Source: a virus (Duplodnaviria; Caudoviricetes). From it: a stretch of DNA of 64,000 nt. The notes under the pieces were generated by a model, which had not been told where the DNA came from, did no database searches, and saw only the letters and a program-made list of their open reading frames with translations. The stretch covers positions 1-64,000 of the IMG/VR virus record IMGVR_UViG_2935054407_000001. One strand, 5' to 3'. The translations under genes were made by a program, and so were the position numbers. The first letter of the stretch is position 1. Each line of letters begins with the position of its first letter. Below are positions 1,532 through 38,236 of the stretch, piece by piece.

Positions 1532-1639
1532 CCGCTGCCACCACGGCCCAGGAAGCGTCGTCGCCCTCCTGGGCCGTGGTAGTGTTTACCTCGCGCCGAA
1601 GAGAGCGGGAAGCGAAAGCCGAACGTGATCCAACAGCCA

Positions 1640-1714
1640 CGGGATGTAGCGCAGCTTGGCTAGCGCACCTGACTGGGGGTCAGGGGGTCGCAGGTTCAAA
1701 TCCTGTCATCCCGA
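1640..1714 (+). tRNA. tRNA-Pro(GGG)
   Basis: Acceptor stem CGGGATG/CATCCCG, anticodon arm CCTGA-CTGGGGG-TCAGG, T-arm CAGG-TTCAAAT-CCTG; CCA not encoded. Confidence 0.95.
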
Positions 1715-6633: not shown

Positions 6634-7182
6634 TTAAGCAGGGAAAGGGCCTGTCGGCTCCGCCTCAAAGAAGGCTTCCTGGAGGCGCTTCGCGTCTCTG
6701 CGGAGGCGAGCACGCTGGGCTTCGCCGAGGTCATGCCGAGCGCCGAGCATGTGCGCGGCCCTGTCCAGAAGGGCAGCCAGGTTGCCTCGCTCGACTAGAG
6801 GCGTACACCGCGCGCACGCAACCCACCGCTTGTCATAGCCGTTCCCCGTGCCAGTCGGGTTGCCCTGCGCATCCACATCGGGCACAACGATCTGCTTTGC
6901 CGTCACGAAGGACGCAGAGATACCGGTCTCGCCGCAGAAGTCGCAGACCGTGGTCGCAGGCGTTGGCTTACCCGTCGTCGGCATCGGACGGTGCTCGAAC
7001 TCCAGCTTGATCCCGGCTGGGTGGCTGAAGCTGGTGATGCCATTGGCGGTCTTCCAGTCGAGCGGTGCTCGACAGATCTCGCAGATGAGCGTGTCTTCGG
7101 CCAGCAGTTGCTCTGCCTGGGCTCGTCTGGCCGGGTTGCCGCTCACTCCGCGTCTTGGGACCTTCTTCGTCTTCTTCGCCAC
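6634..7182 (-). CDS. Zn-finger hypothetical protein
   Basis: CEIC, CDFC and CARC motifs. Confidence 0.65.
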   Translation of the reverse strand: MAKKTKKVPRRGVSGNPARRAQAEQLLAEDTLICEICRAPLDWKTANGITSFSHPAGIKLEFEHRPMPTTGKPTPATTVCDFCGETGISASFVTAKQIVVPDVDAQGNPTGTGNGYDKRWVACARCTPLVERGNLAALLDRAAHMLGARHDLGEAQRARLRRDAKRLQEAFFEAEPTGPFPA

Positions 7183-7289
7183 GTTGCTACTCCTACACCC
7201 TGCGTCTGCCTTGAGCCGTCAATGTTGCATAAGCTTCCTCACTTGTGCAACATTGGTTTCTCGCAAGTCGGTCCCCACCTGGAGCACAC

Positions 7290-7574
7290 GTGAACCGCTA
7301 TCTCGTAGATCTCGCAGCAGCCGTCAAGCCCGAGGACATGCCGCCCAGCGGAACGGCCATCGCAGGACCGGGCCTGGCTGCCGTCTACATGAACAGGGCC
7401 ATGGGCGTGATCTCCGCCCGCTACATCGGCGAGGCCGAGAACCCCATCACCGCAGCCATCGCAGCGAACGAAACCTTCTTCGTCGCCGTCTGCCGACACA
7501 TCAAGCCGGGACTGTTCGAGATCACTCAGGTTTCCAGCGAGAAGGCCCCCGAGGTTCCGCAGGAGAAGATCTGA
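7290..7574 (+). CDS. Hypothetical protein
   Basis: GGAG RBS with GTG start; coupled to the recombinase gene. Confidence 0.6.
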   Translation: MNRYLVDLAAAVKPEDMPPSGTAIAGPGLAAVYMNRAMGVISARYIGEAENPITAAIAANETFFVAVCRHIKPGLFEITQVSSEKAPEVPQEKI

Positions 7575-8485
7575 TGACCAAGCTGCCTGCGCACGTGGGC
7601 GAGGACGTCAAGGATCCGGTCGCCAGCTACATGCGTTCGCTGGCTGCTGGCTCGCGGCGCTCGCAGCATGGCTGCCTGGACCGGATCGCCTCCCTGGTGC
7701 GTGGGAAGAAGGTTTCGGCGGAGGAGATGAGCTGGCACCTGCTGCGGTATGAGCACACCAGCCGGATCCGGGAGATGCTGTGTGCGCAGGGCTGGACGCC
7801 TGCCTATGTCAACAAACACCTGGCCGCGTTGCGCAGGGTGTTGAGGGAGGCGTGGCTGCTGCGGCTGATGGCGGCCGAGGACTACCAGGCCGCCATCAAC
7901 ATCAAGGCGGTCACGGGTAGTCGCGTGCCGCGCGGTCGTCACATCGCGGCCGAGGAGATCACCGCTGCCATCGACACGTGCGCCAGCGCAGGGACGCACC
8001 TGGAGATCCGCAATGCGGCGGTCTTCGGCGTCTTCCGCTACACCGGCATGCGGCGGGCCGAGCTGGGCGGGATGAAGCGGGCCGACTACAACCGGGAAGC
8101 GATGGAGATCCGCGTCATCGGTAAGGGCGACCGCGAGCGGAAGATCCCTCTCAATGAGCGGGCCGTCGAGTTGCTGGAGGCGTGGCTGGCGATTCGCGGC
8201 GACGCACCCGGCGCGCTGTTCATCCCGATCGGCGGAGACTTCCTGTCGCCGTCGGCCTCACGCCAGCGGCACCTGTCCGGCCAGGCCATCAGCAACGCCA
8301 TCCACAAGCACCTGGACGCCACGCCGCACGATTTCCGGCGGACGCTGGTGGGTGACCTGCTGGACGCCGGAGTGGACCCCAAGACGATCATGGACATCAC
8401 GGGACACCAGTCGATCACGGTGATGCTCAGCTACGACCGGCGGAACGGGGCTCGCGCACGGGAGGCTCTGGCGCAGGTCGCCTGA
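7574..8485 (+). CDS. XerC/D-like tyrosine recombinase
   Basis: TGMRRAEL, GKGDRER, TPHDFRRT, TGHQS and SYD catalytic motifs. Confidence 0.9.
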   Translation: MTKLPAHVGEDVKDPVASYMRSLAAGSRRSQHGCLDRIASLVRGKKVSAEEMSWHLLRYEHTSRIREMLCAQGWTPAYVNKHLAALRRVLREAWLLRLMAAEDYQAAINIKAVTGSRVPRGRHIAAEEITAAIDTCASAGTHLEIRNAAVFGVFRYTGMRRAELGGMKRADYNREAMEIRVIGKGDRERKIPLNERAVELLEAWLAIRGDAPGALFIPIGGDFLSPSASRQRHLSGQAISNAIHKHLDATPHDFRRTLVGDLLDAGVDPKTIMDITGHQSITVMLSYDRRNGARAREALAQVA

Positions 8486-26037: not shown

Positions 26038-26066
26038 TTGACATCTATACTCGAAACGAGGATAGT
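26038..26066 (+). promoter_or_regulatory. Housekeeping-sigma promoter of the rightward operon
   Basis: TTGACA-N17-GATAGT with AT-rich upstream region. Confidence 0.8.
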
Positions 26067-26071
26067 TCTCG

Positions 26072-26910
26072 TTGTGAGGCCAGCGGGACCGGCCACACGG
26101 AGCCTCCCGGCTCCGGACTCGCGAAAGCGGGAACGGGGAAGGTGCGGGCATGAAGCTTGATAACCGCATAGGACGTACGGGATACGGATGGACTCTGTAC
26201 CCAACGACCCCGGCAATATCTGAGATGCTCGCGTTTCAGTCCCCTATGTGTGGACGCGCTAGAGCGGCCGGTGAAAATTCGTTGGACGCCAGAGGTCTAT
26301 TAGGTCACGCACGCCCTGTGTCGGGAATCTTGCGGTTGCTTGAGAATTTAATTTAAGCCTGTTTCTTCGGGCGGGACGCTGCGCTTTATGGCGCGCGGTC
26401 CAGCGCTCGCTGTGCTAGCTGGCAGACCCTTTGGAAAGGTCAAGACCAGTCGGGAAGCGAGAAAGCTGGGACGTGCTACCTAAAATGCGGCCAACGTGTA
26501 AGAACGGGTAGAGCAATACGGACACAGCCTATGTCATGAGCTGTACCTACGCGTTAGTGTGCGCACGGGCAACCGTGTGCCGAGATTTCGCGATGACCGT
26601 ACGGATAACGCGCTTAGATGCGTCTTTCAGCCCAAATTCTGTGGGCAGACGCTAGCGACAGATCACGACGCGAGCGATTACGCGGGCAGGCCAAAGCACA
26701 AGGTCACAGCGTCATAGGTGGGAGTGTCTAGGTACAGAGAACGCAAGCGAATGCGTTCGGGCGAATGCATCGGTAACCCGATGATGTGCACGAACGAAAA
26801 GCCGTAGCGGGTAGCTGTACCAAGCACGCCGGGAAATGGCCTAGCGAACCATTTCCCTGTGTGTTCTCAACACGGGCAACCGCGCGTGTTGGGAACATGC
26901 ACCAAGGCAA
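26072..26910 (+). ncRNA. Long structured leader / candidate ncRNA with boxA-like motifs
   Basis: No credible ORF; many hairpins; TAACCGCA (26161) pairs with TGCGGTTG (26331); TTGCTTGAGAA at 26336. Confidence 0.5.
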
Positions 26911-26930
26911 ATCACAGAAAGGCGGAATAC

Positions 26931-27104
26931 ATGATCACTCTTGAATACAACCCGTATGCGAAGCAATTCGACGTCAAGCGTGATGGCGAATACGTAGGCG
27001 TGGTTCAGGAGAACTATGGCACATACCGTGCCCAAAAAATCGGCGCAGACTGCGCATACACGAAACAGAGCATGTGTGACGCGCTCGACGCAATCAGCGA
27101 ATAA
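26931..27104 (+). CDS. First small early gene
   Basis: CACAGAAAGGCGG RBS then ATG. Confidence 0.7.
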   Translation: MITLEYNPYAKQFDVKRDGEYVGVVQENYGTYRAQKIGADCAYTKQSMCDALDAISE

Positions 27105-27112
27105 GTAGTAAC

Positions 27113-27179
27113 GGCGAAACGCGCGTCTTTCAGACAGGCACGCGTCGTACGTGATTGGTCATCACGTGCCTGATGAGCC
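27113..27179 (+). ncRNA. Type II hammerhead ribozyme HH1 (predicted cleavage after 27146)
   Basis: ggc-GAAAC-stemIII-GUC-gtacgtgat/atcacgtgc-CUGAUGA-gcc. Confidence 0.92.
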
Positions 27180-27220
27180 AAACCGGACTCACAGAGACGA
27201 CACAGAATGAGGGCGACCAA

Positions 27221-27454
27221 ATGGCTAACGGGCATCTGTCCAACGTGCGGGCCGACGACTACATGGGGGTCATCCTCGGAGCCGCATTTTCCGTCGGCTG
27301 GCACGCGGAACAGCAGGAGGACGCGAGCTATGTCCTGACGCGCGGAGACGTGACGGTCACGCTGCCGTACGTCCAGAGCATGCGCGACGCGTTCGACGTG
27401 CTGGCCTTCATCGAGACCTCCGGACTGATGGAGCGCATCACGGGCAGGCGTTGA
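27221..27454 (+). CDS. Hypothetical early protein
   Basis: ATG downstream of HH1. Confidence 0.7.
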   Translation: MANGHLSNVRADDYMGVILGAAFSVGWHAEQQEDASYVLTRGDVTVTLPYVQSMRDAFDVLAFIETSGLMERITGRR

Positions 27455-27561
27455 CCTTCTCCCGCGTTTCCCTGTGTGCTAGCGTCTTTCACACCGGCAG
27501 GCGCTAGCACACCCTTCACACGCTCTGACCTGGCTTCACTGTGCCTGAGAGGCAACCAATC

Positions 27562-27870
27562 ATGATCGTTACGGCTCTGTGGTTTGGCGGCAACGGCTCT
27601 TACAGCCTCCCGGACGCTGACAGCGTCGAACAGTTCACCAGCATCACGCACGCTATCAACACGTTCCGGGAGCGTGCCGAGACGTCGGGCGCGTTCGGCC
27701 TGCCGACGTACTTCGTGAACCGGGAGAACTCCCGTGTGTGCTTCCCGGCCGTGGGCGAGGACTGCACCATGGACGTCTACATCGGGCGTGCTGGCGAGAC
27801 TGCCAACTATCCGGATTTCCGCCTGGCGCTCGGACCGCGCGGCGGCGTCAAGCGAGAGAGCTACGTCTAG
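27562..27870 (+). CDS. Hypothetical early protein
   Basis: WFGGNGSYS...YPDFRLALGPRGGVKRE. Confidence 0.75.
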   Translation: MIVTALWFGGNGSYSLPDADSVEQFTSITHAINTFRERAETSGAFGLPTYFVNRENSRVCFPAVGEDCTMDVYIGRAGETANYPDFRLALGPRGGVKRESYV

Positions 27871-27874
27871 ACAA

Positions 27875-27945
27875 GCCGAAACATGCGTCCTTCACACCGG
27901 GAGACGCGTGTCGTACGGGACTGATCGCCCGTGCCTGAGGATGGC
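27875..27945 (+). ncRNA. Type II hammerhead ribozyme HH2 (predicted cleavage after 27912)
   Basis: gcc-GAAAC-atgcgtc/gacgcgt-GUC-gtacggg/cccgtgc-CUGAGGA-tggc. Confidence 0.9.
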
Positions 27946-27982
27946 AGATCCCCATCACCACACACAGAAAGACGGTACAACC

Positions 27983-28567
27983 ATGCTTCCCGAGGTTGAG
28001 AAGTACTTCGCCGCTCGCGACGCCCGCAACAGCTCCGACTACTGGGACAGGCGCTCGCAGGCGGAGCAGGACAACCCGGTTCCGGCCTGGTCCCCCCTCC
28101 TTCCGAAGGAGGAGAGAGCGGCTTACTACGTGGCGGCAGAGAAGCGTGAGGCTGCCCTCCGGCAGGTGGACAATGACTGGAAAGAGGCGGAAGCGGCTGC
28201 GTTCGATGCTCTCCGCGAATCGGAGAACGCAATGGTCCGCTGGATCGCGACCACGCCGCCGGTCCTCAACGGTTACGAGCACCACGCGCACACGGTTCTC
28301 CGCGCTCTCCCGATGACGCGTGAGGAGATCGAGACGTTCGGCGATGAGCAGGGTTGGTGCGGTGAGTACGGACGTTTCCTGAGGCTGGCCGAAAAGGCAG
28401 GTGTCCTGCCCGAGCAGGCGCCCGACCTGGCCGACATCGAGCCCCTGGTGGACGCGCTTCGGGACTGGTACGGCGGCGGTGCCGACAACACGTTCCGCAA
28501 GATAATCCGGAAGCAGCTCCCGGCGCTGATCGAGAGTGCCCGCGAGAGGGCTGCTGTCCAGCAGTAA
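27983..28567 (+). CDS. Hypothetical early protein flanked by HH2 and HH3
   Basis: CACAGAAAGACGG RBS; 194 aa. Confidence 0.75.
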   Translation: MLPEVEKYFAARDARNSSDYWDRRSQAEQDNPVPAWSPLLPKEERAAYYVAAEKREAALRQVDNDWKEAEAAAFDALRESENAMVRWIATTPPVLNGYEHHAHTVLRALPMTREEIETFGDEQGWCGEYGRFLRLAEKAGVLPEQAPDLADIEPLVDALRDWYGGGADNTFRKIIRKQLPALIESARERAAVQQ

Positions 28568-28568
28568 A

Positions 28569-28640
28569 GGCGAAACGCACGTCTTTCACACCGGGAGACG
28601 TGTGTCGTACGTGGGTGGTGCCCGCGTGCCTGATGATGCC
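28569..28640 (+). ncRNA. Type II hammerhead ribozyme HH3 (predicted cleavage after 28606)
   Basis: ggc-GAAAC-gcacgtct/agacgtgt-GUC-gtacgtggg/cccgcgtgc-CUGAUGA-tgcc. Confidence 0.9.
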
Positions 28641-28681
28641 AAACCGGACTCACAGCCATCACACAGAAAGACGGTAAACAC

Positions 28682-29788
28682 ATGTCTCGCGAGACTGCGC
28701 AGTGGCTCAACACCATGACCCTCATCGGCTTCACCGGCAAGCGTGGCAAGGCGTGGCACTACCGTGCCGACGTCCAGGGTGACGAGAGCAACCACTACGA
28801 CGGCGCCATTCCCGTGGAAGACGTCAAGCGGCGTCTGTTCCACTGGGCGCCCGTCGAGATGCCCGTGTTCACCATCGTCCCCCCGCGTTTCGACCTGGAC
28901 GGCGTCCACCCCGCGCGTATCGTCCGCCTGGACGGGCGTAAGGCCGTTCTCCGGGATGACGAGCTGGCGGCGGCGGGTATCGACCTGACCGGCCTGGACC
29001 TGTCCGGCAACCTGTGGGACCTGCCCGGCATGGACGCCATGGGCATGTTCAAGGACTCGTACCAGCCGCACCCCTACCACGAGTGGCTCGTGCTGAACGT
29101 GGAGCGGATCCTGGACGGGAACCTCTCCATCGGCTCGGCCGGTCTGCTGCGCGGCGGTGCTCAGGCGTGGGTGAGTGTGGAAGTGCCGGACAACATCACC
29201 ACGCCAGAAGGGGTCGAGTTCCGGCCGAATCTGCTGGCGTGCACGTCCTTCGACGGCTCGTTGGCGACCACGTACAAGCGCCACGTCACGGTGGTCGTGT
29301 GCGACAACACGCTGAGCATCGCCAGGGGCGAGAACGGACAGCAGTACAAGGTCAAGCACACGAGCAAGAGCCTCAACCGCATCACTGACGCTCGCGAGGC
29401 TCTGAACATCGTCTACAGCGCTGCGGACGACTTCGCGGCGGAAGTGGCGGAGCTGTGCCGGATCGACGTGTCCGACAAGGCGTGGGCCGCCTTCATGAAC
29501 GAGATCGCGCCCCTGCCCGAGGACCCGAAGAACAAGCGGGGTGCCACCATGGCGGAGAACAAGCGCGCGGAGTACAACCGCCTGTGGAACCACGACGCTC
29601 GCGTCTCCCCCTGGCAGAACACCGCCTACGGCGTGCTGGCTGCGGTCAACACGTACGACCACCACATTGCCACCACGCGCGGCATGAGCCGGGCCGACCG
29701 CAACATGGACAAGGCCGTGAGCGGTGACTTCGACAAGCTGGACCGAAGCACGCTCGCCACGCTGACCAAGGTTCTCGCCACCGTCTAG
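28682..29788 (+). CDS. DUF932 (phage/plasmid TIGR03299-like) protein
   Basis: SAGLLRGGAQAWV, PNLLACTSFDGSLAT, VVCDNTL, TAYGVLAAVNTY. Confidence 0.88.
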   Translation: MSRETAQWLNTMTLIGFTGKRGKAWHYRADVQGDESNHYDGAIPVEDVKRRLFHWAPVEMPVFTIVPPRFDLDGVHPARIVRLDGRKAVLRDDELAAAGIDLTGLDLSGNLWDLPGMDAMGMFKDSYQPHPYHEWLVLNVERILDGNLSIGSAGLLRGGAQAWVSVEVPDNITTPEGVEFRPNLLACTSFDGSLATTYKRHVTVVVCDNTLSIARGENGQQYKVKHTSKSLNRITDAREALNIVYSAADDFAAEVAELCRIDVSDKAWAAFMNEIAPLPEDPKNKRGATMAENKRAEYNRLWNHDARVSPWQNTAYGVLAAVNTYDHHIATTRGMSRADRNMDKAVSGDFDKLDRSTLATLTKVLATV

Positions 29789-29882
29789 GCGGTTCGTTGG
29801 GCACGCGTCTTTCACACCGGGAGACGCGTGTCCTTCAATCCGATGTGACGTCGGTACCTCCCCCAGAAAGGCGGCTCTAACG

Positions 29883-30155
29883 ATGATCAACAGACTGCGG
29901 ACGTCGCAACAGGTGGCTACTCTCCTGCTTTCGCTCGGCTGCACGGGCGTCCAGCAGCTCGCTAGAAAGTGCCCTGTGTCCGCGTACTACAGACTCCAGT
30001 ACCCGCACGCGACGCGAGTGACTGTAGGTCGTTACAACGTGACCCTCTGTTTCGGCAGCTTCAGGTACACCACCATCCCCAATTCCGCAGCCGTGCGACG
30101 GTTCATCGGGGAATTCGACTGTGGCGCCTACCCCGGCTTGATCCGTAAGCCGTAG
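29883..30155 (+). CDS. Hypothetical early protein
   Basis: CAGAAAGGCGG RBS. Confidence 0.65.
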   Translation: MINRLRTSQQVATLLLSLGCTGVQQLARKCPVSAYYRLQYPHATRVTVGRYNVTLCFGSFRYTTIPNSAAVRRFIGEFDCGAYPGLIRKP

Positions 30156-30157
30156 CC

Positions 30158-30406
30158 ATGGCGGCATACCCGCCTGGATTCATTCCCGCGCTTTCTGATG
30201 ACTCGCCGGAAGTCCGGGCGGATGCCGCTCTGTGGATTATCGGGGAACGCGAGACAGAGCTAACCGGCATCGAAGCGCGCATAGAGCAAGAGCGCAACGC
30301 GTCGCGACGGAACAAGCTCCGCACCAAGCACAAAGCCCTACAGAACAACATCAGCGCGTGGCAGGTGTACATGGACGATGGTTGCCCGCGCTACGCACCT
30401 AGCTAA
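30158..30406 (+). CDS. Hypothetical early protein
   Basis: Coiled-coil ORF in the operon. Confidence 0.55.
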   Translation: MAAYPPGFIPALSDDSPEVRADAALWIIGERETELTGIEARIEQERNASRRNKLRTKHKALQNNISAWQVYMDDGCPRYAPS

Positions 30407-30426
30407 CACACAGAAAGGCGGAACAC

Positions 30427-30582
30427 ATGCTCATGGCCCCCCGCAACCGTGGCCGTGTCGGATTCTCCGGCTGCGAATTCACCTGCTGCCCGATCTGGTC
30501 GAACAAGCGGCGCGAGCGGCGCCACATCCGGCGTAGGGAGCGCCAGACGGTTAACCGGATGCTCGTCGCTCTCGACTACTAG
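30427..30582 (+). CDS. 51-aa basic peptide absent from the ORF track
   Basis: CACAGAAAGGCGG RBS; MLMAPRNRGRVGFSGCEFTCCPIWSNKRRERRHIRRRERQ... Confidence 0.65.
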   Translation: MLMAPRNRGRVGFSGCEFTCCPIWSNKRRERRHIRRRERQTVNRMLVALDY

Positions 30583-30643
30583 CCGAAACGCACGCTACGG
30601 CGTGCGTCGTACCGGGATTGGTTACCCGGTACCTGATGACGGC
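30582..30643 (+). ncRNA. Type II hammerhead ribozyme HH4 (predicted cleavage after 30608)
   Basis: gcc-GAAAC-gcacgc(UACG)gcgtgc-GUC-gtaccggg/cccggtac-CUGAUGA-cggc. Confidence 0.95.
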
Positions 30644-30676
30644 AGACCACCGTTAACACACAGAAAGGCGGGAGAT

Positions 30677-31207
30677 ATGGCTCCGCGCATTGACAGGAAC
30701 ATCGTGTTGGTTCTCGACGTCGAAGAGAACTACGGATACGGTCACATTTACGCCAGGCCGCGCGTGGAGAACAACGGCTTTCAGAAGTACGCCGATGCCC
30801 CCGTGTTGCTCTCTCCGGGACTGGGTGACCGGTACGGCTGGGACGAGCCGTACAACCACCTGGGCAACCTTCGCGCTTCGTGCCAGTACGACGTTACCAA
30901 CCGTTCGTGTGTCTACGGCTACGAAATCGAGTACGCCGACATGACCAGGGTCCGCACGCGTGAGGCTGAGGTCATGGCGAAGGCTCTCCGCAAGATAGAC
31001 CGGGAGATGAACAAGCTTCGCGACGCGCACGGCTACCCCGATTCTTATGGGGAGTACCTGGCGCACTTCGCCGCCGCGATCGGATGCAACCGCTTCGCCA
31101 TTAGGCATCGCGAAATGCGCGCCAACGGCACCCACTACCAGTGGTTGGACGTGGCCGGTATGCGCTCGTGGGTCGCACAGCAGACGGCGGACAAGGTGTC
31201 TGCGTAG
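30677..31207 (+). CDS. Hypothetical early protein
   Basis: CACAGAAAGGCGG RBS. Confidence 0.75.
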   Translation: MAPRIDRNIVLVLDVEENYGYGHIYARPRVENNGFQKYADAPVLLSPGLGDRYGWDEPYNHLGNLRASCQYDVTNRSCVYGYEIEYADMTRVRTREAEVMAKALRKIDREMNKLRDAHGYPDSYGEYLAHFAAAIGCNRFAIRHREMRANGTHYQWLDVAGMRSWVAQQTADKVSA

Positions 31208-31347
31208 GCGACGGATCCGATCCGGTCTAGGCGAGCTAGGGGGATGTGCGGACACGCGCCGTGCCTCCCTCAGTTCGATGTGACATCGGACTGCTTAAAC
31301 CCCCATGCGTCTTTCACACAGGCACGGCGCAACACAGAAAGGCGGCT

Positions 31348-31929
31348 ATGACACCTATCCCCCTCCCGATTTCTGGTGAGACGCACGAACGGTTCGTGTC
31401 CAGCATCCTGGACGTCTGGCACAGCGCTACGCCGGACCAGTTGGAGCGTGGAACGCGCTGGTATCCCCAGGCTAACCAGTTCGCCGCCATGATCTCTGGT
31501 GGCGACGTAGTAGCCGGGGCCGGTGTCATCGCTGCCCTGTCCGCCAATAAGCGATGGGACGAGAACACCAAGATTGCGGCCCGCGCTTTCGTGAATGGTG
31601 AACCGTCGGGGCACGTCGGTGATGCGCTCACGAAAGCGGCTCGGATCATGGGCGGTGAGTCACCTTCGGATGTCCTGCCCATGGACGTCAAGACGGGCCA
31701 GTTTTTCCGATGCATCGCTGACCCGACGGACCCTGAGGCGGTCTGTGTGGACCGTCACGCGCATGATGTGGCGGTTGGTCGCCGGTATGGCAGTGCGGAC
31801 CGTGGCCTTAGCTCTCGCAAGCGTTACAAGGCCATTGCGGACGCCTACAGGGAGGCCGCTAGGCGGCTGGGTGTCCTGCCTCTGACAGTCCAGGCCGTTT
31901 GCTGGATTGTCCAGATCGAAGCCAACTAA
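31348..31929 (+). CDS. Phage protein, possibly DNA glycosylase-like (DUF7178-like)
   Basis: GTRWY, GVIAALS..KRWDEN, VCVDRHA, QAVCW. Confidence 0.65.
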   Translation: MTPIPLPISGETHERFVSSILDVWHSATPDQLERGTRWYPQANQFAAMISGGDVVAGAGVIAALSANKRWDENTKIAARAFVNGEPSGHVGDALTKAARIMGGESPSDVLPMDVKTGQFFRCIADPTDPEAVCVDRHAHDVAVGRRYGSADRGLSSRKRYKAIADAYREAARRLGVLPLTVQAVCWIVQIEAN

Positions 31930-31947
31930 TCCAGAAAGGCGGATGAC

Positions 31948-32379
31948 ATGCCGTACACGGCACATGGTCACTGGTTTGGCGACGGTGAGCCCACCGGGCC
32001 TAGGCCGGACAGGGTCACACGGTGCAACGGACTGCACGGGTGCCCGCAATGCAAGATGGATGCCGAGCTGGTCTCGATGCTCGCGAGTCCTAAAAAGGGA
32101 ATCGCTCTCAAGTTCGGTGACCAAATTTCGAACGGTGCTCACGTGCTGGCCTACACCGGCATCCACAGCAGCACGAGGATCACACGCGCGGTTGCGCTGT
32201 GCTGGTGTCCAACGCGGAAAGAGTTCGTGATCTGGACCATCGAATACGGATACGCCGACCAGGGCGAAGCCTGGTACGCACACAACGGCCACCGCGCGGG
32301 ACAAGACCTCGCCTATGCCCTGCTGAGCTATACGCAGCAGGCCGGTCCCGGCGCCTCTCTCCCGAATTTCATCTACTAG
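31948..32379 (+). CDS. Hypothetical early protein
   Basis: RBS; RCNGLHGCPQC. Confidence 0.7.
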   Translation: MPYTAHGHWFGDGEPTGPRPDRVTRCNGLHGCPQCKMDAELVSMLASPKKGIALKFGDQISNGAHVLAYTGIHSSTRITRAVALCWCPTRKEFVIWTIEYGYADQGEAWYAHNGHRAGQDLAYALLSYTQQAGPGASLPNFIY

Positions 32380-32450
32380 GCGAAACGCGCGTCTTTCACA
32401 CCGGTAGGCGCGCGTCGCGTCGGGAGTCGTTACCCGATGCCTGATGAGCC
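32379..32450 (+). ncRNA. Type II hammerhead ribozyme HH5 (predicted cleavage after 32416)
   Basis: ggc-GAAAC-gcgcgtct/aggcgcgc-GUC-gcgtcggg/cccgatgc-CUGAUGA-gcc. Confidence 0.93.
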
Positions 32451-32478
32451 AGACCACACAGAAAGAGGGCACAGACCC

Positions 32479-32829
32479 ATGAGCAACACCGCTAAGCAGA
32501 TCCAGGTTGGGACGCACGGCAAGGGCCTGCGGGCGCTGATTGAGGCCCTGGAGACCTGCACTCCCTTCAAGACGGCTGGTGCCTTTCAGGCCATGGCTGG
32601 CGTGCCCTCCGGGACCGGCCGCATGCCGAAGGATGAGCGCGAGCGTTTCGAGACCGACCGACCGCAGATCACGTACACCGTTCTTTCGTACGCCACCCCG
32701 ATTGCCTGGGTTCTGGAGAACGGAGAGACGTACGTCTCTGACACCTATTACTCACCCACGACGACCAAGCACCAGAGCCGTGTTCGCGTGTATCTGAACC
32801 GCGCAAACGTCATTGACGAGGCTGCGTAA
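32479..32829 (+). CDS. Hypothetical phage protein
   Basis: YTVLSYATPIAW...YSPTTTKHQS. Confidence 0.75.
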   Translation: MSNTAKQIQVGTHGKGLRALIEALETCTPFKTAGAFQAMAGVPSGTGRMPKDERERFETDRPQITYTVLSYATPIAWVLENGETYVSDTYYSPTTTKHQSRVRVYLNRANVIDEAA

Positions 32830-32897
32830 CGGTCGTGAGCGCTTCTGACATCGCCCGGAAATCCGGGCGGTGTTGGTGGCACGGCGAACGTGTCAGA
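32830..32897 (+). repeat. 68-bp intergenic structured repeat, copy 1
   Basis: Near-identical to 33500-33567. Confidence 0.9.
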
Positions 32898-32927
32898 CCT
32901 AAGAACATACACAGAAAGAGGGTTGTA

Positions 32928-33497
32928 ATGCTCACAGAGATCCGTGCCATCGCTACCGATGTTGCTCGCGAGATGGGTAACTGGACCATTCGCGACGGCT
33001 ACATGAACGGCCAGTTCTTCATCGCCGACGAGAACAAAGAGCTGTGCCTGATGTTCGATCTCACACACGAGACGGGCAGGCTCAGCATCAGTGCCTCGTA
33101 CCCGAAGAATTCCAGTGTGGTGCACGGCATCAAGGGCTACAGCATCCGCGTGTCTTACAAGCGCGGCGCGGTCGTGATCGCACGGGAGATCAAGCGGAGG
33201 TTGATGCCTGACTACCTCCGCGAGCTGGAGAGCGTTGTCACACGGATCGCCGCTCACGAGGCGGAGGAAAGGCGGCAGGCGACCATAGCGCAGACCGTCG
33301 CAACGGCGCTTGGTGTCGATTGCCCGGAGACCGTCCACCCATCCGGAGTCTATGTCCGTAGCGGCTGGTGCGGTCCGAAGGCGCCCGTTACACGCTCGGA
33401 ATTCCGCGTCATGTCCGGTAGCAGCGTGGCTATCGAGATCAAGACGGATGGTGAGGTAGCCGCAAAGATCGCCGAATTCCTTCGGACTCTTATGTAG
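32928..33497 (+). CDS. Hypothetical early protein
   Basis: ACAGAAAGAGG RBS then ATG. Confidence 0.7.
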   Translation: MLTEIRAIATDVAREMGNWTIRDGYMNGQFFIADENKELCLMFDLTHETGRLSISASYPKNSSVVHGIKGYSIRVSYKRGAVVIAREIKRRLMPDYLRELESVVTRIAAHEAEERRQATIAQTVATALGVDCPETVHPSGVYVRSGWCGPKAPVTRSEFRVMSGSSVAIEIKTDGEVAAKIAEFLRTLM

Positions 33498-33499
33498 TG

Positions 33500-33567
33500 C
33501 GGTCGTGAGCGCTTCTGACATCACCCGGATTTCCGGGCGGTGTTGGTGGCACGGCGAACGTGTCAGA
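33500..33567 (+). repeat. 68-bp intergenic structured repeat, copy 2
   Basis: Near-identical to 32830-32897. Confidence 0.9.
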
Positions 33568-33591
33568 GCAACACGCAGAAAGGCGGGACAG

Positions 33592-34191
33592 ATGGGATCG
33601 ATTGGACTTCACCGCGAGCCTGGCATGACCGATCGGGAATTCTTCGAGAAGGAGTTCCCGAACATGCTCGGCAAGTATGGGCAGATCGTGGCCTGTGCTT
33701 CCAACCCCGCTGGTGGCGATTGGAACCGTGCTTTCTATGCGGCGGTCACCAACAACGATGACGCGTCGTATAAGCCGGGCGAGACGTGGGCGTTGGTCGT
33801 GCTGATGCGCAACGACCGTAAATCGTCGGGCGGGTGCAACTTCTACTACAAGGACTTGGACGAGACCATGGGGCCGGTTGAAAGCACCTGCCCGGACCGG
33901 ATTCTTGACCTCCTGTCACCGACCGAACATGCAGGGGCCACCAGGTGGCGAGAGCGCTGCCGTGCCCACAATGCCCGCCTGGACAAGGCGCGGAAGCTCA
34001 CCGACGGTCAGATCATCCGCTTCACCAACCCCATGCCCTTCGGTGAGCCGTATGGAGAGGCTCAGCGCTTCCGCTACCGGAAGGCGGGGCGTAAGTCGGT
34101 CCTTGAAGCGATCACCGATGACGGGGAATTCCGCTTCCGTGCCCGGATTCCCGGCTGGCGCGCAATGTCATTCGAGATCGAGAACAACTAG
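33592..34191 (+). CDS. DUF6927-like protein
   Basis: FYAAV, FYYKDLDETMGP...CPDRILDLLSPT...WRERC. Confidence 0.75.
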   Translation: MGSIGLHREPGMTDREFFEKEFPNMLGKYGQIVACASNPAGGDWNRAFYAAVTNNDDASYKPGETWALVVLMRNDRKSSGGCNFYYKDLDETMGPVESTCPDRILDLLSPTEHAGATRWRERCRAHNARLDKARKLTDGQIIRFTNPMPFGEPYGEAQRFRYRKAGRKSVLEAITDDGEFRFRARIPGWRAMSFEIENN

Positions 34192-34207
34192 CAGAAAGAC
34201 GGTAGTG

Positions 34208-36918
34208 ATGGACATCCCCGCTCTCCTCGTACGCATGGCGCGCAGCGTTCCCCGGCACGACAATGCCCGAATGATTATGTGGACGGCACACGAGGCGGTG
34301 AACAACACGTCTGACCTGGTGGATGGTGCACGGGCAGCGCTGGCGTACGTGTCAACGCACATCGGCGATGCTCCCGGACAGTCCAGGGATGAGCTGCTAA
34401 ATGACGCGGTTGCGGTGCTCTCCCTACATCTGGCGCTGCACACCATCGCCGAAAAGTACAAGTAAGGGAAAGGCGGGAGTAATGCCAGAGCGGCGCAAGG
34501 CGACCACGAAATACACGCTCGTACAGCACAGCGGGAGCACATCGCATGCGGAATTCCGGCACGCGGTAGAAGTGCTCTCCGTCTCGACGCTCACGGAACA
34601 GGACAAGATCGAAAAGGTCGGCGGCCTGCTGTTCGAGAGCTGGGAGGAGGCGGACAACAGGGAGTACGAGGAGAACTACCCGCCGGGGGTTACCGGGCTC
34701 TACCCGCGCGTGCCCGGCACGTTCCGGACCGATCTGAAAATCGATGGGTTCAACCTCTACATCCCCGCTGCGAAGAACGACACGGAAGGCCAGTGACCAT
34801 GCCTCTTACCGCCCCCGAAAAGCGAGCCATCAAGCGGGCTTACCGCTGTGTCGTGATGCTGAACGAGCACACGCCGGAATGGCGCGGAATGGTGGACAAG
34901 GACACCCTTGCCATGCATCACACGAGCCGCTGTGTGTTCGGCCAGGTGTTCGGCGACTTCAACGAAGGGATCGACGTGCTGTCCCTGCACGGTTGCGACG
35001 AACCGCAGCGCTACGGGCTGGATCTCGACGTGAGGAACGACGTCATGTACCCCGTGCTGGACACCGCCTGGCGGATCGTGCTTGACCACCTGGACGCGCG
35101 GTCGGCCTAGCGGATCCTCTGGTCCCCATGCCTGCCAAATATCGGGGGCGGGCATGGGCGGCCGGGGCGTCCGCTTGGACGATCACCACCACACACACAC
35201 AGAAAGGCGGGAGATGGGAAGGCACAGCAGGAACCGATCGCCGTACCCGGCCAGCAGCACGACCCCTGACCGCTCACAGGTCACGGAATCTGAGAGCGAG
35301 GCTCTCGTCCGGCTCGCTGCTCTGGTCTGTCACAACATCGCTACCGGCTTCGCTCCGGAGCGGGCTGTGGAGGCGGCTCTCCGTTCCTTCGACGACCCCG
35401 AAAGCGTGGTCGAGCTGTGGGCAGCGGTCTGGGAGCGCATCAAATCTGAAGACACCGAAAGGCGGTAGAACCATGACCTACAACCACGCACGCATGACGG
35501 ACGCGGATCGCGCTAGGAACACCCGCACCATCACGAACAGGCTCATCCATGCATGGGAGATCATGAAGGCCACGGGTCCGGTTTCTGGCCCAGCCGACTA
35601 CTACACTGGGATGTCCACCGCGTACGAGGCGTTCACCGGCTGCAACCCCGTAGCGCTGTCGATGGCGCTGGACGACAACCGGAAGCGCCACGGCAATCTG
35701 TCGCTCTCCGATCGGGCTGACAAGCTGATCGAGTCCTTGTCTCTGGCCGAGGTCTTCCCCTACCTCAAGGACGGGGACGCGTGATGACTGCATACGAGAT
35801 CGCTGCTCGGGCCGCTTTCTTCGCCTCCCAGCGCGCGACACAGGCGACCGTGGCAGAGCTGCACAGGTGGGAGCGCGCGGCTCGGCGCTCTGGCAACCGC
35901 GAGCACGTCAAGGAGATCCGGCGCGAGGTGAGGCGCATTCGCGCTACCAAGCGGCTCTCTCTCATCAAGCACGGCGGCGCGTGGGCCTGCTTCGACAACC
36001 GCACGGGGTCAGTCTGCGAGACCTTCGCTTACCGCATGGACGGCGCGACCTACGTCGAGTACTGGAACGGCCAGTACCACAAGCACACGTCCTAGCGGAT
36101 CCTCCGATCACCGCGCGTCTTTCACACCGGTAGAGATGCGCGGCCGGTCGGGGCGTCCGCTGGGGCGATCACGACCAACACACACAGAAAGGCGGGAGAT
36201 CTATGCGCTTCTCCTACATCAACGAGGACTACATGCGCGAGCGGTGGCCGGTCGGCTGCCGAGCACGGCTCAAGAGCCTTCCGGGGAACTCGACCACCCT
36301 GACGATCGCCCCGCACGCGGAGACGAACTCCCCCTACAACCTCCGCTACTCGACGCGGACCAAGAGCGGTCCGGCGGTCAACATCACCTACCCGAAGTAC
36401 TGGCGGAACCGCAAGGGCGGCTGGGTGTTCGCCGCAGCGCTCCGACTGATCGGTAAGTGCGCTGACGGTACGTGCAACCACGCGGAAAGGCGGTAGATCC
36501 GCGTGCACTGTGACCGTTGCGGCCGAGAGCTGCGGGCCTGGCCGTTGGAGCGCGGAAGCCGTTGCAGCCCCAAGCGGTGGACGTACTGCATCAGGCCGAA
36601 GAGCGACTGAGACTCCCCAACCGCACACAGAAAGGCGGTAGTTCCACCATGCCTAAGATCCTGATCGCCACCGACAAGGCTCCGCAGAGCAGCGTCCCCA
36701 ACGTGCGCGGGATGAACTGGGTGGCCCGTCGCGCCGCCATCATCCGCGCGGCCTTCCACCTGGAGAGGCAGGAGCGGGCCGTGCGGGCGCTGATGGCGAT
36801 GACCTTCGACGGCGACGAGCGGATCAAGCTCAAGGCCCTGCTCCAGCAGATCCAGGCGGACATCCGGAGCATCCACGTCTACGCCAAGGCCGGTTATCCG
36901 TCTGTCCGGGAGATCTGA
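34208..36918 (+). other. Run of small early genes (34208-34465, 34482-34796, 34793-35110, 35214-35468, 35473-35784, 35781-36095, 36203-36496, 36503-36610, 36649-36918)
   Basis: Most preceded by GAAAG(G/A)CGG; 36503-36610 is a 35-aa Cys peptide absent from the ORF track. Confidence 0.7.
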
Positions 36919-37692
36919 GTGCGCGCCCGGTTTCTCTGTGGTGCTCCGGAGTTGAGTTGGGCCGAAGATCACGGCGACATCGGGCCGCTTTTCATCAGCT
37001 TCAACCGCATTTGCCGATTGAAGTTTCGGCCCATCGATGTCACCACGGATTTCGCTATCGACAGTGGCGGCTTCACACAGCTTTCCAATGGCGGTTGGCC
37101 GGACGGCTGCGAAGAGCCCTACATCGCGGCGATTCGCAGGCTCAAGCGCTTCATCTGGAGAGGCGGCCACCACCTTCTGTGGATCGCTCCGCAAGATTGG
37201 ATGTGCGAGGAAGAGCAGCTAGCCAACACTGGTCTTACGGTGCTCGAACACCAGAGACGCACCGTGCGGAACTTCGCCCGGCTCACTCAGCTTGCCCCCG
37301 ATCTTCCGTGGGCCATGGCTGTGCAGGGTGATACGCCGAGAGCCTATCTCCGCATTCTCGACATGTACGCAGACGCAGGAGTCGATCCCCTCGCACAGAA
37401 GATCGTTGGCGTCGGTTCCATCTGCCGAATTCAGCACACGGACAAGGCCGTCGAGATTATCGAGACCTTGCACGATGCCGGACTGCGGAAGCTACACGGA
37501 TTCGGACTGAAGACGGAAGGGCTCGCGAAGGTCGGGCATCTCCTCACCTCCGCCGATTCGATGGCCTGGTCTGAGCATGCCCGCAAGCAGAAGATCCACC
37601 TTGACGGGTGCTCGCATAAGCGGTGCGTCTCCTGCCCGAAATTCGCCAAGCAATGGCGAGACAACCTCATCAATCGCGGGCTCGCTGCCTAA
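36919..37692 (+). CDS. Queuine tRNA-ribosyltransferase-like / DpdA-like protein
   Basis: FAIDSGGFTQL, APQDWMCE, VGVGSICR, LHGFGLK, SADSMAWS. Confidence 0.8.
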   Translation: MRARFLCGAPELSWAEDHGDIGPLFISFNRICRLKFRPIDVTTDFAIDSGGFTQLSNGGWPDGCEEPYIAAIRRLKRFIWRGGHHLLWIAPQDWMCEEEQLANTGLTVLEHQRRTVRNFARLTQLAPDLPWAMAVQGDTPRAYLRILDMYADAGVDPLAQKIVGVGSICRIQHTDKAVEIIETLHDAGLRKLHGFGLKTEGLAKVGHLLTSADSMAWSEHARKQKIHLDGCSHKRCVSCPKFAKQWRDNLINRGLAA

Positions 37693-37720
37693 TCGTTCAC
37701 ACAGAAAGACGGTAATAGTC

Positions 37721-38236
37721 ATGTCCTTCTACCCCTATGAGCTGTGCGTGACGCTCCGATCCCAGAACCCGGATGACACGGATGAGATGTCGGTTGATCT
37801 CCTGGCTGTCGAACTGGACGAGTTGAAGGCTGCGGTTCTCAGTACCTTCGGCGGTATCTACGTCGAGGTGGACACGGACGACGGCAACTGGGAAGGCGTC
37901 CAGGTGTCCGGGACCACCATTGAGCAGCTCTGGAAGCTGGCGAAGCTGGCCACCGAGTCTCGTGACGCGAACTGCTTCATGGCCTGGGCGGGCATCCTGC
38001 CGGGCGGGCTCGCGAGTCTTGACCCGGAAACGGCGATCAGGGACTTCCGTAGGGAGTTCGAGGGCGACTACGAAGACCTCGCTGAATATGGACACACCCT
38101 CATGGAGGACGAAATCCGGCACATGCCCATCCTGGACCAGTTCTTCAACTTCGCGGAGTACGGCAAGTACGTCGCCGCTGACCACCGGGTTGTCGAGCTG
38201 TCCACCGGCCGCATCGCCGTCTTTGGGAAGGGCTGA
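37721..38236 (+). CDS. ArdA-like antirestriction (DNA mimic) protein
   Basis: Acidic; DFRREFEGDYEDLAEYG...QFFNFAEYGKYV...AVF. Confidence 0.7.
   Translation: MSFYPYELCVTLRSQNPDDTDEMSVDLLAVELDELKAAVLSTFGGIYVEVDTDDGNWEGVQVSGTTIEQLWKLAKLATESRDANCFMAWAGILPGGLASLDPETAIRDFRREFEGDYEDLAEYGHTLMEDEIRHMPILDQFFNFAEYGKYVAADHRVVELSTGRIAVFGKG

What the first reader, a model, noticed from the sequence alone, without database searches (positions are those of the whole stretch)
27113..32455. Five self-cleaving hammerhead ribozymes punctuate a phage early operon
Seen: five intergenic elements (27113-27179, 27875-27945, 28569-28640, 30582-30643, 32379-32450) share the order stemII-GAAAC-stemIII-GUC-stemI-CUGA(U/G)GA-stemII. 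Stem sequences differ between copies but pairing is kept (stem II ggc/gcc in some, gcc/ggc in others). Each begins at or within ~10 nt of the upstream stop codon (in HH4 and HH5 the G of TAG starts stem II). Each cleavage site lies ~60-75 nt before the next start codon. Established: this is the type II hammerhead core, and cleavage after GUC gives 5'-OH and 2',3'-cyclic phosphate ends. Hammerheads are known near phage genes but their role is largely unresolved. Inference: the long early transcript cuts itself into units, each starting with a 5'-OH and a stem-I hairpin, acting as natural insulators and a protein-free analogue of T7 RNase III processing.
Basis: partly seen in the sequence, partly recalled or inferred. 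Interest (0 to 1): 0.95.

Follow-up and report, generated by a model that had tools for sequence, protein, structure and literature searches.

The report
Five hammerhead ribozymes in phage operon
A temperate phage of actinobacteria carries five well-formed self-cutting hammerhead RNAs between the genes of one operon, a layout known in phages since 2011, so this is a clean new example and not a new kind of system.

Summary
Rfam's type II hammerhead model (RF02276) hits all five elements on the + strand. Three reach the curated cut-off of 37 bits (49.2, 42.4, 37.2) and two fall below it (33.5, 27.6). All five keep the full catalytic core, and each sits between a stop codon and the next gene's leader.

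A related provirus (G405, terminase 94% identical) has three hammerheads in matching slots. Across the eight copies, 8 of 20 stem pairs change on both sides while the core stays fixed. HH2 and HH5 lie beside genes that G405 lacks.

The reading "one long transcript cuts itself into units" is plausible. It is also the hypothesis Perreault et al. published in 2011 (PMC3088659), and nothing here tests cleavage or transcription. This scan has already noted larger arrays of the same kind on other DNA.

New points: the host group is actinobacterial. Type II geometry leaves a stable hairpin at both new RNA ends. Stem III of four of the five carries a genome-wide 13-nt motif, which the relative replaces with its own version at matching sites.

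Verdict: new member of a known kind, moderate interest.

The parts
27112..27183 (+). HH1, type II hammerhead. Stem II GGC/GCC; stem III 5 bp, a C-A mismatch, then 4 bp, carrying the motif variant TCTTTCAGACAGG. Cut after C27146.
   Evidence: RF02276 at 27.6 bits, below the cut-off of 37. Core and stems. The MFE fold gives the three-way junction. The positional counterpart Ra in G405 scores 27.9 bits.
27874..27953 (+). HH2, type II hammerhead. Core CUGAGGA (N7 = G), extra U after A9, stem II GCC/GGC. Cut after C27912.
   Evidence: RF02276 at 37.2 bits.. The MFE fold gives stems I and III but not stem II. No counterpart in G405, which also lacks the downstream gene 27983-28567.
28568..28644 (+). 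HH3, type II hammerhead directly before the DUF932 gene. Extra U after A9. Cut after C28606.
   Evidence: RF02276 at 33.5 bits, below the cut-off.. MFE three-way junction with z -2.98. G405 has hammerhead Rb in the same slot before its DUF932 gene.
30581..30651 (+). HH4, type II hammerhead. Stem III is closed by a UACG tetraloop and carries no 13-nt motif. Extra C after A9. Stem II starts with the G of the TAG stop. Cut after C30608.
   Evidence: RF02276 at 49.2 bits.. MFE three-way junction with z -3.93. The counterpart Rc in G405 scores 42.8 bits and also has a UACG loop.
32378..32458 (+). HH5, type II hammerhead. Stem II starts with the G of the TAG stop. Cut after C32416.
   Evidence: RF02276 at 42.4 bits.. 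MFE three-way junction with z -2.50. Absent from G405 together with the flanking genes 31948-32379 and 32479-32829.
26931..27104 (+). First small gene (57 aa) with the shared leader. Its stop lies 8 nt before HH1.
   Evidence: Sequence read. An orthologue with 72% amino-acid identity is present in G405.
27983..28567 (+). 194-aa gene bounded by HH2 and HH3, the only single-gene unit.
   Evidence: 24 proteins at E <= 0.001, the query itself included. Source names give Nonomuraea, Streptosporangium and Actinomadura. No Pfam or PHROG family.
28682..29788 (+). DUF932 gene, first gene of the four-gene unit between HH3 and HH4.
   Evidence: Pfam PF06067, E 3.3e-41. phrog_1221, E 1.9e-92.
29801..29831 (+). 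Free-standing hairpin, 29 of 31 nt identical to stem III of HH2 including the GUC, but with no hammerhead core.
   Evidence: Local alignment. Fold -26.8 kcal/mol, z -6.73. Matches only positions 11-39 of my model R1.
27478..27508 (+). Free-standing hairpin carrying the 13-nt motif, at the junction between HH1 and HH2.
   Evidence: Fold -24.8 kcal/mol, z -6.25. R1 partial match to positions 10-40. Same stem with a different loop motif in G405.
26038..26066 (+). Best sigma-70-like site upstream of the operon (TTGACA, 17 nt, GATAGT). Candidate promoter only.
   Evidence: 10 of 12 positions match, but 4 sites were found against 4.3 expected in shuffles, so there is no statistical weight.

Best explanation
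The five elements are active type II hammerhead ribozymes transcribed as part of a long + strand operon RNA, running from about 26.9 kb to at least 38 kb, of a temperate actinobacterial myovirus.

Each folds after it has been transcribed and cuts after its GUC. This divides the RNA into units of 1, 2, 1, 4 and 3 or more genes.

Because stem II is the open stem in type II, the cut falls between two closed hairpins:
- The upstream product ends in the stem III hairpin plus one nucleotide bearing a 2',3'-cyclic phosphate.
- The downstream product begins with a 5'-OH whose first nucleotide is already paired in the stem I hairpin. About 25-40 nt further on lies the shared leader ACACAGAAAGGCGG, then the start codon.

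Both new ends are thus hairpin-capped. This should shield the units from exonucleases and make each unit's 5' UTR independent of what lies upstream (insulation).

The ribozyme travels with gene cassettes. HH2 and HH5 are present only where their neighbouring genes are present.

Shown here: family membership, intact cores, compensatory stem changes, conservation of three slots in a relative, and the end geometry. Inferred: cleavage in vivo, the single long transcript, early timing, and the stabilising or insulating effect.
For: Family and core:
- RF02276 matches all 5, 3 of them over the cut-off.
- All five have CUGANGA, GAAA, A15.1-U16.1 and C17.
- The MFE fold reproduces the three-way junction in 4 of 5.

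The relative G405 (provirus, terminase 94% identical):
- It has 3 hammerheads (42.8, 37.1 and 27.9 bits).
- They lie in front of the orthologues of g27221, DUF932 and g30677, whose proteins are only 66, 67 and 53% identical.

Structure counts over the eight copies:
- 94.2% of cells are paired (0 of 500 shuffles reach this).
- 8 of 20 pairs change on both sides (3 of 500 shuffles).
- Covariation score is 0.395 against 0.235 (0 of 500).
- Slid controls give at most 1 such pair.

Other points:
- A lineage model finds exactly 5 + 3 full copies in 199 kb of both genomes.
- Terminal hairpins after cleavage: stem III -10.6 to -18.2 kcal/mol, stem I -10.3 to -15.2 kcal/mol, with stem I paired from its first nucleotide in all five.
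- No terminator-like site lies at an HH junction on the + strand.
- Genes on the + strand are real.
- Published precedent: three prophage hammerhead clusters cleaved as expected in vitro and one in vivo in E. coli (PMC3088659; passages).
Against: - No RNA data exist. The only sequencing run that holds the stretch is DNA, so transcription and cleavage are untested.
- Two of five score under Rfam's cut-off.
- HH4 has an extra C, and HH2 and HH3 an extra U, between A9 and stem II. In the one viroid hammerhead studied at that position, a review reports that U raised the trans-cleavage rate while C or G was strongly detrimental (PMC3705267, passage). HH4's MFE also pairs the core G12 with that C.
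- The loop I to 3' tail pseudoknot that type II hammerheads usually need is possible (3-5 bp each), but it is no better than shuffled tails (645 of 2000 shuffles equal or exceed it).
- Seven junctions of the same operon manage without a ribozyme.
- The more distant BRock-like Streptomyces myophages have none (0 of 4). The ribozymes are therefore dispensable for this kind of operon.
- Predicted accessibility of the ribosome site is the same before and after cleavage.
Confidence: 0.7

Rival explanations
1. Composite signal. The hammerheads exist mainly to place or expose the stem III hairpin, whose loop carries a phage-specific 13-nt motif recognised by a phage-encoded factor. That factor either acts on the 3'-terminal hairpin left by cleavage or modulates cleavage itself (a regulated ribozyme).
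For: - The motif TCTTTCACACMGG occurs 17 times in the window at up to 2 mismatches, against 2.4 expected. Every copy runs in the same direction as the local genes, by my reading of the listings.
- It sits in stem III of 4 of 5 hammerheads.
- G405 has a different version (TCTNYCWAACCGGGA; 12 copies against 0.6 in shuffles), including at matching junctions and in stem III of 2 of its 3 hammerheads. That is concerted divergence, as expected for a site that co-evolves with its reader.
- Free-standing copies are very stable hairpins whose stems differ between the two phages while still pairing.
Against: - HH4 and its counterpart Rc, the best-scoring copies, lack the motif.
- About half of the copies in G000 show no flanking hairpin (my reading), so a DNA-level site such as an operator or promoter that merely shares the intergenic space is equally possible.
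- No candidate binding protein was identified.
- Stem III loops lie far from the catalytic core and usually tolerate insertions (recalled knowledge).
Confidence: 0.15
2. Decay trigger. Cleavage lowers expression, because the 5'-OH product is fed to RNase J, as described for the glmS ribozyme in Bacillus (recalled). The ribozymes would then limit, not protect, the downstream genes.
For: Actinobacteria have RNase J (recalled). The review read (PMC6765202) says that processing could give transcripts of different stability, and that the purpose is undefined.
Against: In all five, the first nucleotide of the 3' product is paired in an 8-10 bp stem I (-10.3 to -15.2 kcal/mol). This leaves no single-stranded 5' end for an exonuclease. 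The flanked genes have strong conserved leaders.
Confidence: 0.08
3. Passenger elements. The hammerheads are neutral or selfish hitch-hikers of mobile gene cassettes, with no benefit to the phage.
For: - HH2 and HH5 are present or absent together with neighbouring genes when G000 and G405 are compared.
- The copies are mosaics of one another.
- 0 of 4 BRock-like relatives, 0 of 5 other DUF932-bearing actinophages, and 0 of 151 sampled Actinomycetes genomes have a hit over the cut-off.
Against: - Eight of eight copies keep every core nucleotide.
- 8 of 20 stem pairs show compensatory change, while neighbouring proteins have diverged to 53-77% identity. This points to purifying selection on catalysis.
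- Position is always stop codon, then ribozyme, then leader.
Confidence: 0.07

Closest known systems
Clustered hammerhead ribozymes flanking genes in prophages (Perreault et al. 2011, PMC3088659; passages and section 8 read)
   Same: - Several hammerheads, including type II, lie in one orientation between single genes or short gene blocks of a phage.
- The proposed role is processing of long phage RNA into gene- or operon-length mRNAs.
- Gene identities are not constant.
- An ardA gene lies in the same transcription unit. There it is flanked by the ribozymes; here ArdA is at 37721-38236, 5 kb downstream of HH5.
   Different: - The host group is actinobacterial, and five copies lie within 5.3 kb.
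- Stem III carries a genome-wide, phage-specific motif.
- Gain and loss with gene cassettes is seen against a close relative.
- I could not see their Figure 3 or Dataset S1 (supplements are closed), so I cannot say whether actinobacterial examples or arrays this large are already listed there.
Rfam RF02276 Hammerhead_II
   Same: Core, three-way junction and open stem II. Full-length matches in 5 of 5.
   Different: - Two copies score below the curated cut-off.
- Three have one extra nucleotide after A9.
- Four have an 11-13 nt loop insertion in stem III.
Extra nucleotide between A9 and G10.1 in the CChMVd (+) hammerhead (De la Pena and Flores 2001, as summarised in review PMC3705267; passage read)
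   Same: A natural hammerhead with one inserted residue at the same core position that remains active.
   Different: That one is a viroid type III ribozyme with an inserted A. Here the insert is U, U and C. The review says U raised the rate and C lowered it in that context, and it is unknown whether this transfers.
RNase III processing of phage T7 early mRNA
   Same: A long early transcript is cut at intergenic hairpins into separate mRNAs that keep a 3' hairpin.
   Different: That system depends on the host enzyme and uses double-strand cuts. Here the cutting would be done by the RNA itself, giving 5'-OH and cyclic-phosphate ends.
Synthetic ribozyme insulators such as RiboJ
   Same: A self-cleaving ribozyme placed before the ribosome site removes the upstream context and leaves a 5' hairpin.
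   Different: That part is engineered and used singly. The elements here are natural, five in series, and of type II.

Membership tests
Hammerhead ribozyme, type II (Rfam RF02276) | Conserved core: C3 U4 G5 A6 N7 G8 A9, G12 A13 A14, the A15.1-U16.1 pair, and H17 at the cleavage site | tested here: met
   Present in 5 of 5, and in 3 of 3 copies in the relative G405. One extra nucleotide follows A9 in HH2, HH3 and HH4.
Hammerhead ribozyme, type II (Rfam RF02276) | Three helices around the core, with stem II open and stems I and III closed by loops | tested here: met
   MFE gives the three-way junction in 4 of 5. Across eight copies, 94.2% of cells are paired and 8 of 20 pairs change on both sides. 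That alignment was fitted to the model, which leans towards the structure.
Hammerhead ribozyme, type II (Rfam RF02276) | Covariance-model score at or above the curated gathering score (37 bits) | tested here: inconclusive
   Met by 3 of 5 (49.2, 42.4, 37.2). Not met by 2 of 5 (33.5, 27.6).
Hammerhead ribozyme, type II (Rfam RF02276) | Tertiary contact: a pseudoknot of about 4 bp or more between loop I and the nucleotides after stem II (found in most type II members, per Perreault 2011) | tested here: inconclusive
   3-5 contiguous pairs are possible in each of the 5. In 4 of 5 they start at tail offset 1-2; for HH2 the script's best pairing was at offset 8, and an equally long in-register one is my own reading of the sequence. 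645 of 2000 tail shuffles do as well or better.
Hammerhead ribozyme, type II (Rfam RF02276) | Mg-dependent self-cleavage after H17 | not testable with these tools
   No RNA run holds the stretch. This needs in vitro transcription.
Clustered phage or prophage hammerheads (Perreault et al. 2011) | Several hammerheads in one orientation flanking single genes or short gene blocks in a phage genome | tested here: met
   Five on the + strand within 27112-32458, bounding units of 1 to 4 genes. The genome encodes portal, terminase, capsid, tail sheath and integrases.
Clustered phage or prophage hammerheads (Perreault et al. 2011) | Cleavage of the polycistronic RNA into fragments of the expected sizes | not testable with these tools
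   Not done here. It was shown for three other clusters in the paper.

The most novel reading that the evidence does not exclude
The hammerheads are one half of a two-part junction device. Stem III is the phage's generic junction hairpin. Its loop carries a 13-nt signal found across the genome, and a related phage replaces that signal with its own version at matching sites, which implies a phage-encoded reader. The ribozyme would then cut exactly one nucleotide after this hairpin, so that each upstream mRNA ends in the signal. This would couple RNA self-cleavage to recognition by a phage factor for stability, translation or timing control.
Probability: 0.15. Interest if true: 0.6.

Novelty: new member of a known kind. 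Interest (0 to 1): 0.3.

Why it matters
What clustered phage hammerheads are for has been open since 2011. The 2019 review read still calls for more work.

This locus offers a compact test bed. It has five ribozymes of graded quality and non-ribozyme hairpins in equivalent slots of the same operon. It also has a relative that keeps three ribozymes and lacks two together with their genes. Core mutants could therefore be compared with natural 'no ribozyme' junctions.

It also extends the arrangement to a temperate actinobacterial myovirus. In the samples searched here, type II hammerheads were otherwise not found over the cut-off in this group: 0 of 9 actinophage genomes and 0 of 151 Actinomycetes genomes.

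Tried and rejected
1. 'Cleavage frees the ribosome site.' Mean unpaired probability of the Shine-Dalgarno region in the whole junction against the 3' product was 0.63/0.63, 0.57/0.52, 0.62/0.46, 0.48/0.48 and 0.72/0.72. No support.

2. 'The stem III motif is an anti-Shine-Dalgarno.' The first 9 nt of the motif (CCGUCUUUC) are complementary to the operon's own GAAAGRCGG. The wider pattern GAAAGRSGG occurs 29 times in the genome against 4 expected, 20 of them on the + strand at 26.9-37.7 kb, of which 18 lie just before a start codon. However, G405 keeps the same leader while its motif has lost the UUUC, and folding does not predict the pairing. Rejected.

3. 'The HH-less junctions are decayed hammerheads.' Similarity to the hammerhead junctions is limited to the motif hairpin and the leader. 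My model matches them only over stem III. Not supported. They look like free-standing hairpins.

4. Pseudoknot covariation. Not above shuffles.

5. Close relatives by DNA or by operon proteins. Nothing came from any of these:
- phages megablast;
- IMG/VR with the DUF932 protein and with the 194-aa protein;
- plasmids and phages tblastn with the 194-aa protein;
- four named actinobacterial genomes and a 401-genome class sample.
The one metagenome locus, L158, shares only that protein and has no hammerhead. The relative G405 was reached only through the terminase.

6. Motif patterns in IMG/VR. One pattern gave 0 matches and another gave 8 single matches, taken as chance.

7. A loose hammerhead descriptor gave 23 viral and more than 120 genome matches. 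Of the 13 actinobacterial loci I then scanned (13 of the 120 returned), 0 had a hammerhead at Rfam's cut-off. I take those 13 to be chance matches and assume the same of the rest. The 23 viral loci were not scanned.

8. Sequencing runs. No RNA holder is listed; one DNA run may be the source.

9. The 68-nt twin elements at 32830-32898 and 33499-33567. No Rfam family at E <= 10. MFE gives two adjacent hairpins. A 20-mer from them has no match in IMG/VR. One copy is present in G405.

10. Literature:
- 'hammerhead' plus 'actinobacteriophage': 0 papers.
- 'hammerhead ribozyme' plus 'mycobacteriophage': 3 papers, unrelated by title.
- hammerhead, ribozyme, Streptomyces, phage and intergenic together: 3 papers, unrelated by title.
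- The 12-nt forms of the motif: 0 occurrences in the 15 papers listed.
Supplements are closed, so Perreault's datasets could not be checked.

Full report
WHAT IS THERE

The window is the first 64 kb of a 108,967-bp virus record that CheckV rates complete. The record encodes:
- two integrases, RecA and a ribonucleotide reductase;
- portal, terminase, capsid, tail sheath and a family A DNA polymerase.
It is therefore a temperate myovirus. Its terminase is 60-63% identical to those of Streptomyces phages BRock, Alone3, LuckySocke, GiJojo and pSt2308. Homologues of one operon protein are named by their sources as Nonomuraea, Streptosporangium and Actinomadura. The host is thus an actinobacterium.

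From about 26.9 kb to at least 38 kb, the + strand carries a run of small genes. Most are preceded by the same leader, ACACAGAAAGGCGG or a close variant. Named families in this run are DUF932, DUF7178, DUF6927, DpdA and ArdA.

CHECK OF THE OBSERVATION

Rfam's type II hammerhead model matches all five elements over its whole length on the + strand. Three are at or above the curated 37 bits (49.2, 42.4, 37.2). Two are below (33.5 and 27.6).

All five contain CUGANGA, GAAA, the A15.1-U16.1 pair and a C at the cleavage site. The cuts would fall after 27146, 27912, 28606, 30608 and 32416.

- Stem II is GGC/GCC in three copies and GCC/GGC in two.
- Stem II starts between -1 and 8 nt from the upstream stop codon.
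- The next start codon lies 62-75 nt after the cut.

Energy minimisation alone reproduces the three-way junction in 4 of 5. For HH2 it gives stems I and III only.

The rest of the genome has no further hammerhead and no other Rfam family at the curated cut-offs. No other ribozyme family appears in 20-40 kb, even at E <= 10.

EVIDENCE FROM A RELATIVE

Searches with DNA and with operon proteins found no relative.

The terminase did find one IMG/VR provirus record, G405 (90,284 bp, terminase 94% identical). Its operon is syntenic at about 70-80% nucleotide identity. It has three type II hammerheads, at 42.8, 37.1 and 27.9 bits.

By flanking genes, these three sit in the slots of HH1, HH3 and HH4. 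They lie before the orthologues of g27221, DUF932 and g30677, whose proteins are 66, 67 and 53% identical.

HH2 with gene 27983-28567 has no counterpart in G405. Neither does the block of gene 31948-32379, HH5 and gene 32479-32829. The ribozymes therefore come and go together with gene cassettes.

All eight copies keep the core. A covariance model built from the five finds exactly these eight full-length copies in 199 kb of the two genomes. Its remaining weak matches cover only the stem III part.

Counting pairs on the eight:
- 94.2% of cells are paired (0 of 500 shuffles reach this).
- 8 of 20 pairs change on both sides (3 of 500).
- The covariation score is 0.395 against 0.235 (0 of 500).
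- Versions with the partner slid by 1-3 columns give at most one such pair.
The alignment was fitted to the model, which favours the structure. My own core-anchored table gives the same picture.

This is good evidence that the fold, and hence probably catalysis, is under selection.

HOW IT MOST LIKELY WORKS

In type II the open stem is stem II, so the cut falls between two closed hairpins.
- The upstream product would end in the stem III hairpin (-10.6 to -18.2 kcal/mol) plus a single nucleotide with a cyclic phosphate.
- The downstream product would begin with a 5'-OH nucleotide that is already the first pair of stem I (-10.3 to -15.2 kcal/mol).

From established knowledge of bacterial RNA decay (recalled), such ends resist 3' exonucleases and 5'-end-dependent RNases. 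Each unit would also receive the same short, defined 5' UTR whatever lies upstream.

That is the processing idea of Perreault et al. 2011. [quoted passage not shown] They also showed cleavage for three clusters in vitro and one in E. coli (PMC3088659). The 2019 review still lists the purpose as undefined (PMC6765202).

One further inference of mine: stem II and GAAA lie within a few nucleotides of the stop codon. A ribosome terminating on the upstream gene would cover them, so cleavage may compete with translation of that gene. This is untested.

WHAT SPEAKS AGAINST OR LIMITS THIS

- No RNA run holds the stretch. Nothing here shows transcription, cleavage or timing.
- 'Early' rests on gene content and on one promoter-like site, in a scan whose site count was at chance level.
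- Two copies are under Rfam's cut-off.
- An extra C at HH4's position was strongly detrimental in the one viroid hammerhead studied, while U was favourable (review PMC3705267).
- The usual loop I to tail pseudoknot is possible in all five, but it is not better than chance.
- Seven other junctions of the operon carry plain hairpins or other structured elements instead of a ribozyme.
- The BRock-like relatives have none (0 of 4).
- Five other actinophages that carry a DUF932 gene have none (0 of 5).
- 0 of 151 sampled Actinomycetes genomes had a hit over the cut-off, though only 31 candidates per genome were scored.
The ribozymes are therefore a lineage-specific, dispensable solution.

THE STEM III MOTIF

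Four of the five hammerheads carry in stem III a 13-nt motif, TCTTTCACACMGG. Counts in the window are 17 at up to 2 mismatches against 2.4 expected. The genome has 21 at up to 2 mismatches and 13 by a stricter pattern. Every copy runs with the local genes, mostly between genes (my reading of the listings).

It also tops very stable free-standing hairpins at ribozyme-less junctions. One of these, at 29801-29831, is 29 of 31 nt identical to stem III of HH2, GUC included.

G405 has 12 copies of a different version, TCTNYCWAACCGGGA, several of them at junctions matching those of G000 and two in the stem III of its hammerheads. HH4 and its counterpart Rc both have a UACG tetraloop instead.

Concerted change of many sites between two related phages suggests a phage-specific reader, acting on either RNA or DNA. 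I could not decide which.

My idea that the motif is an anti-Shine-Dalgarno fails. G405 keeps the leader but not the complementary part of the motif.

COMPARISON AND VERDICT

By core, topology and model match, these are members of the type II hammerhead family. The activity test is outstanding, and two copies score sub-threshold. The arrangement is the clustered phage hammerhead layout known since 2011.

This scan has already noted it on other DNA: 326 notes in at least 286 genomes hold the search words, and arrays of 10 to 33 are described. Those are unchecked AI notes.

I found no paper on natural hammerheads in actinophages in the library. I could not see Perreault's supplementary lists.

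I rate the finding a new member of a known kind. Its interest comes from three things: its use as a test bed, the cassette-linked gain and loss, and the unexplained motif in stem III.

Noticed in passing
window 12881-57866 (17 copies in the window; 21 in the genome at up to 2 mismatches): The 13-nt motif TCTTTCACACMGG always runs with the local genes and often forms the loop of a hairpin. The related provirus G405 has its own version (TCTNYCWAACCGGGA, 12 copies), several at matching junctions. This concerted divergence suggests a phage-specific reader, acting on RNA or DNA.
   Followed up: partly
window 32830-32898 and 33499-33567: Two near-identical elements of about 68 nt sit directly after stop codons, in the same slot the hammerheads occupy. 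They match no Rfam family at E <= 10. MFE gives two adjacent hairpins (z -5.06 and -3.00). One copy is kept in G405 at 91% identity (L177 10858-10926).
   Followed up: partly
window 35111-35213 and 36096-36202: Two junctions carry long imperfect hairpins of about 20 bp that start at a TAG stop, and one of them holds the 13-nt motif. They look like RNase III-type stems and occupy the same slot as the ribozymes.
   Followed up: no
window 26917-37712: The unusual extended leader ACACAGAAAG(G/A)CGG precedes most genes of the operon. Of 29 genome matches to GAAAGRSGG, 20 are on the + strand here and 18 of those lie just before a start codon; shuffles give 4 matches. The same leader is kept in G405.
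   Followed up: partly
window 36919-38236: DpdA (7-deazaguanine DNA modification) and an ArdA-like anti-restriction gene lie side by side in the same operon. This suggests the operon serves counter-defence. In Perreault et al. 2011 the Agrobacterium triple hammerhead also flanks ardA.
   Followed up: no
window 27983-28567; locus L158 144-2181: The 194-aa protein bounded by HH2 and HH3 has no family. It has 23 homologues besides itself, named by their sources as Nonomuraea, Streptosporangium and Actinomadura. One metagenome contig carries three tandem paralogues with no hammerhead nearby.
   Followed up: partly
window 176-1714 and 6848-8485: Two tyrosine-integrase genes are present, with a tRNA gene (1640-1714) beside the first. 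This fits a temperate or integrated element; the relative G405 is classed as a provirus.
   Followed up: no
window 26067-26930: About 850 nt with no convincing gene lie between the best promoter-like site (26038-26066) and the first gene of the operon.
   Followed up: no
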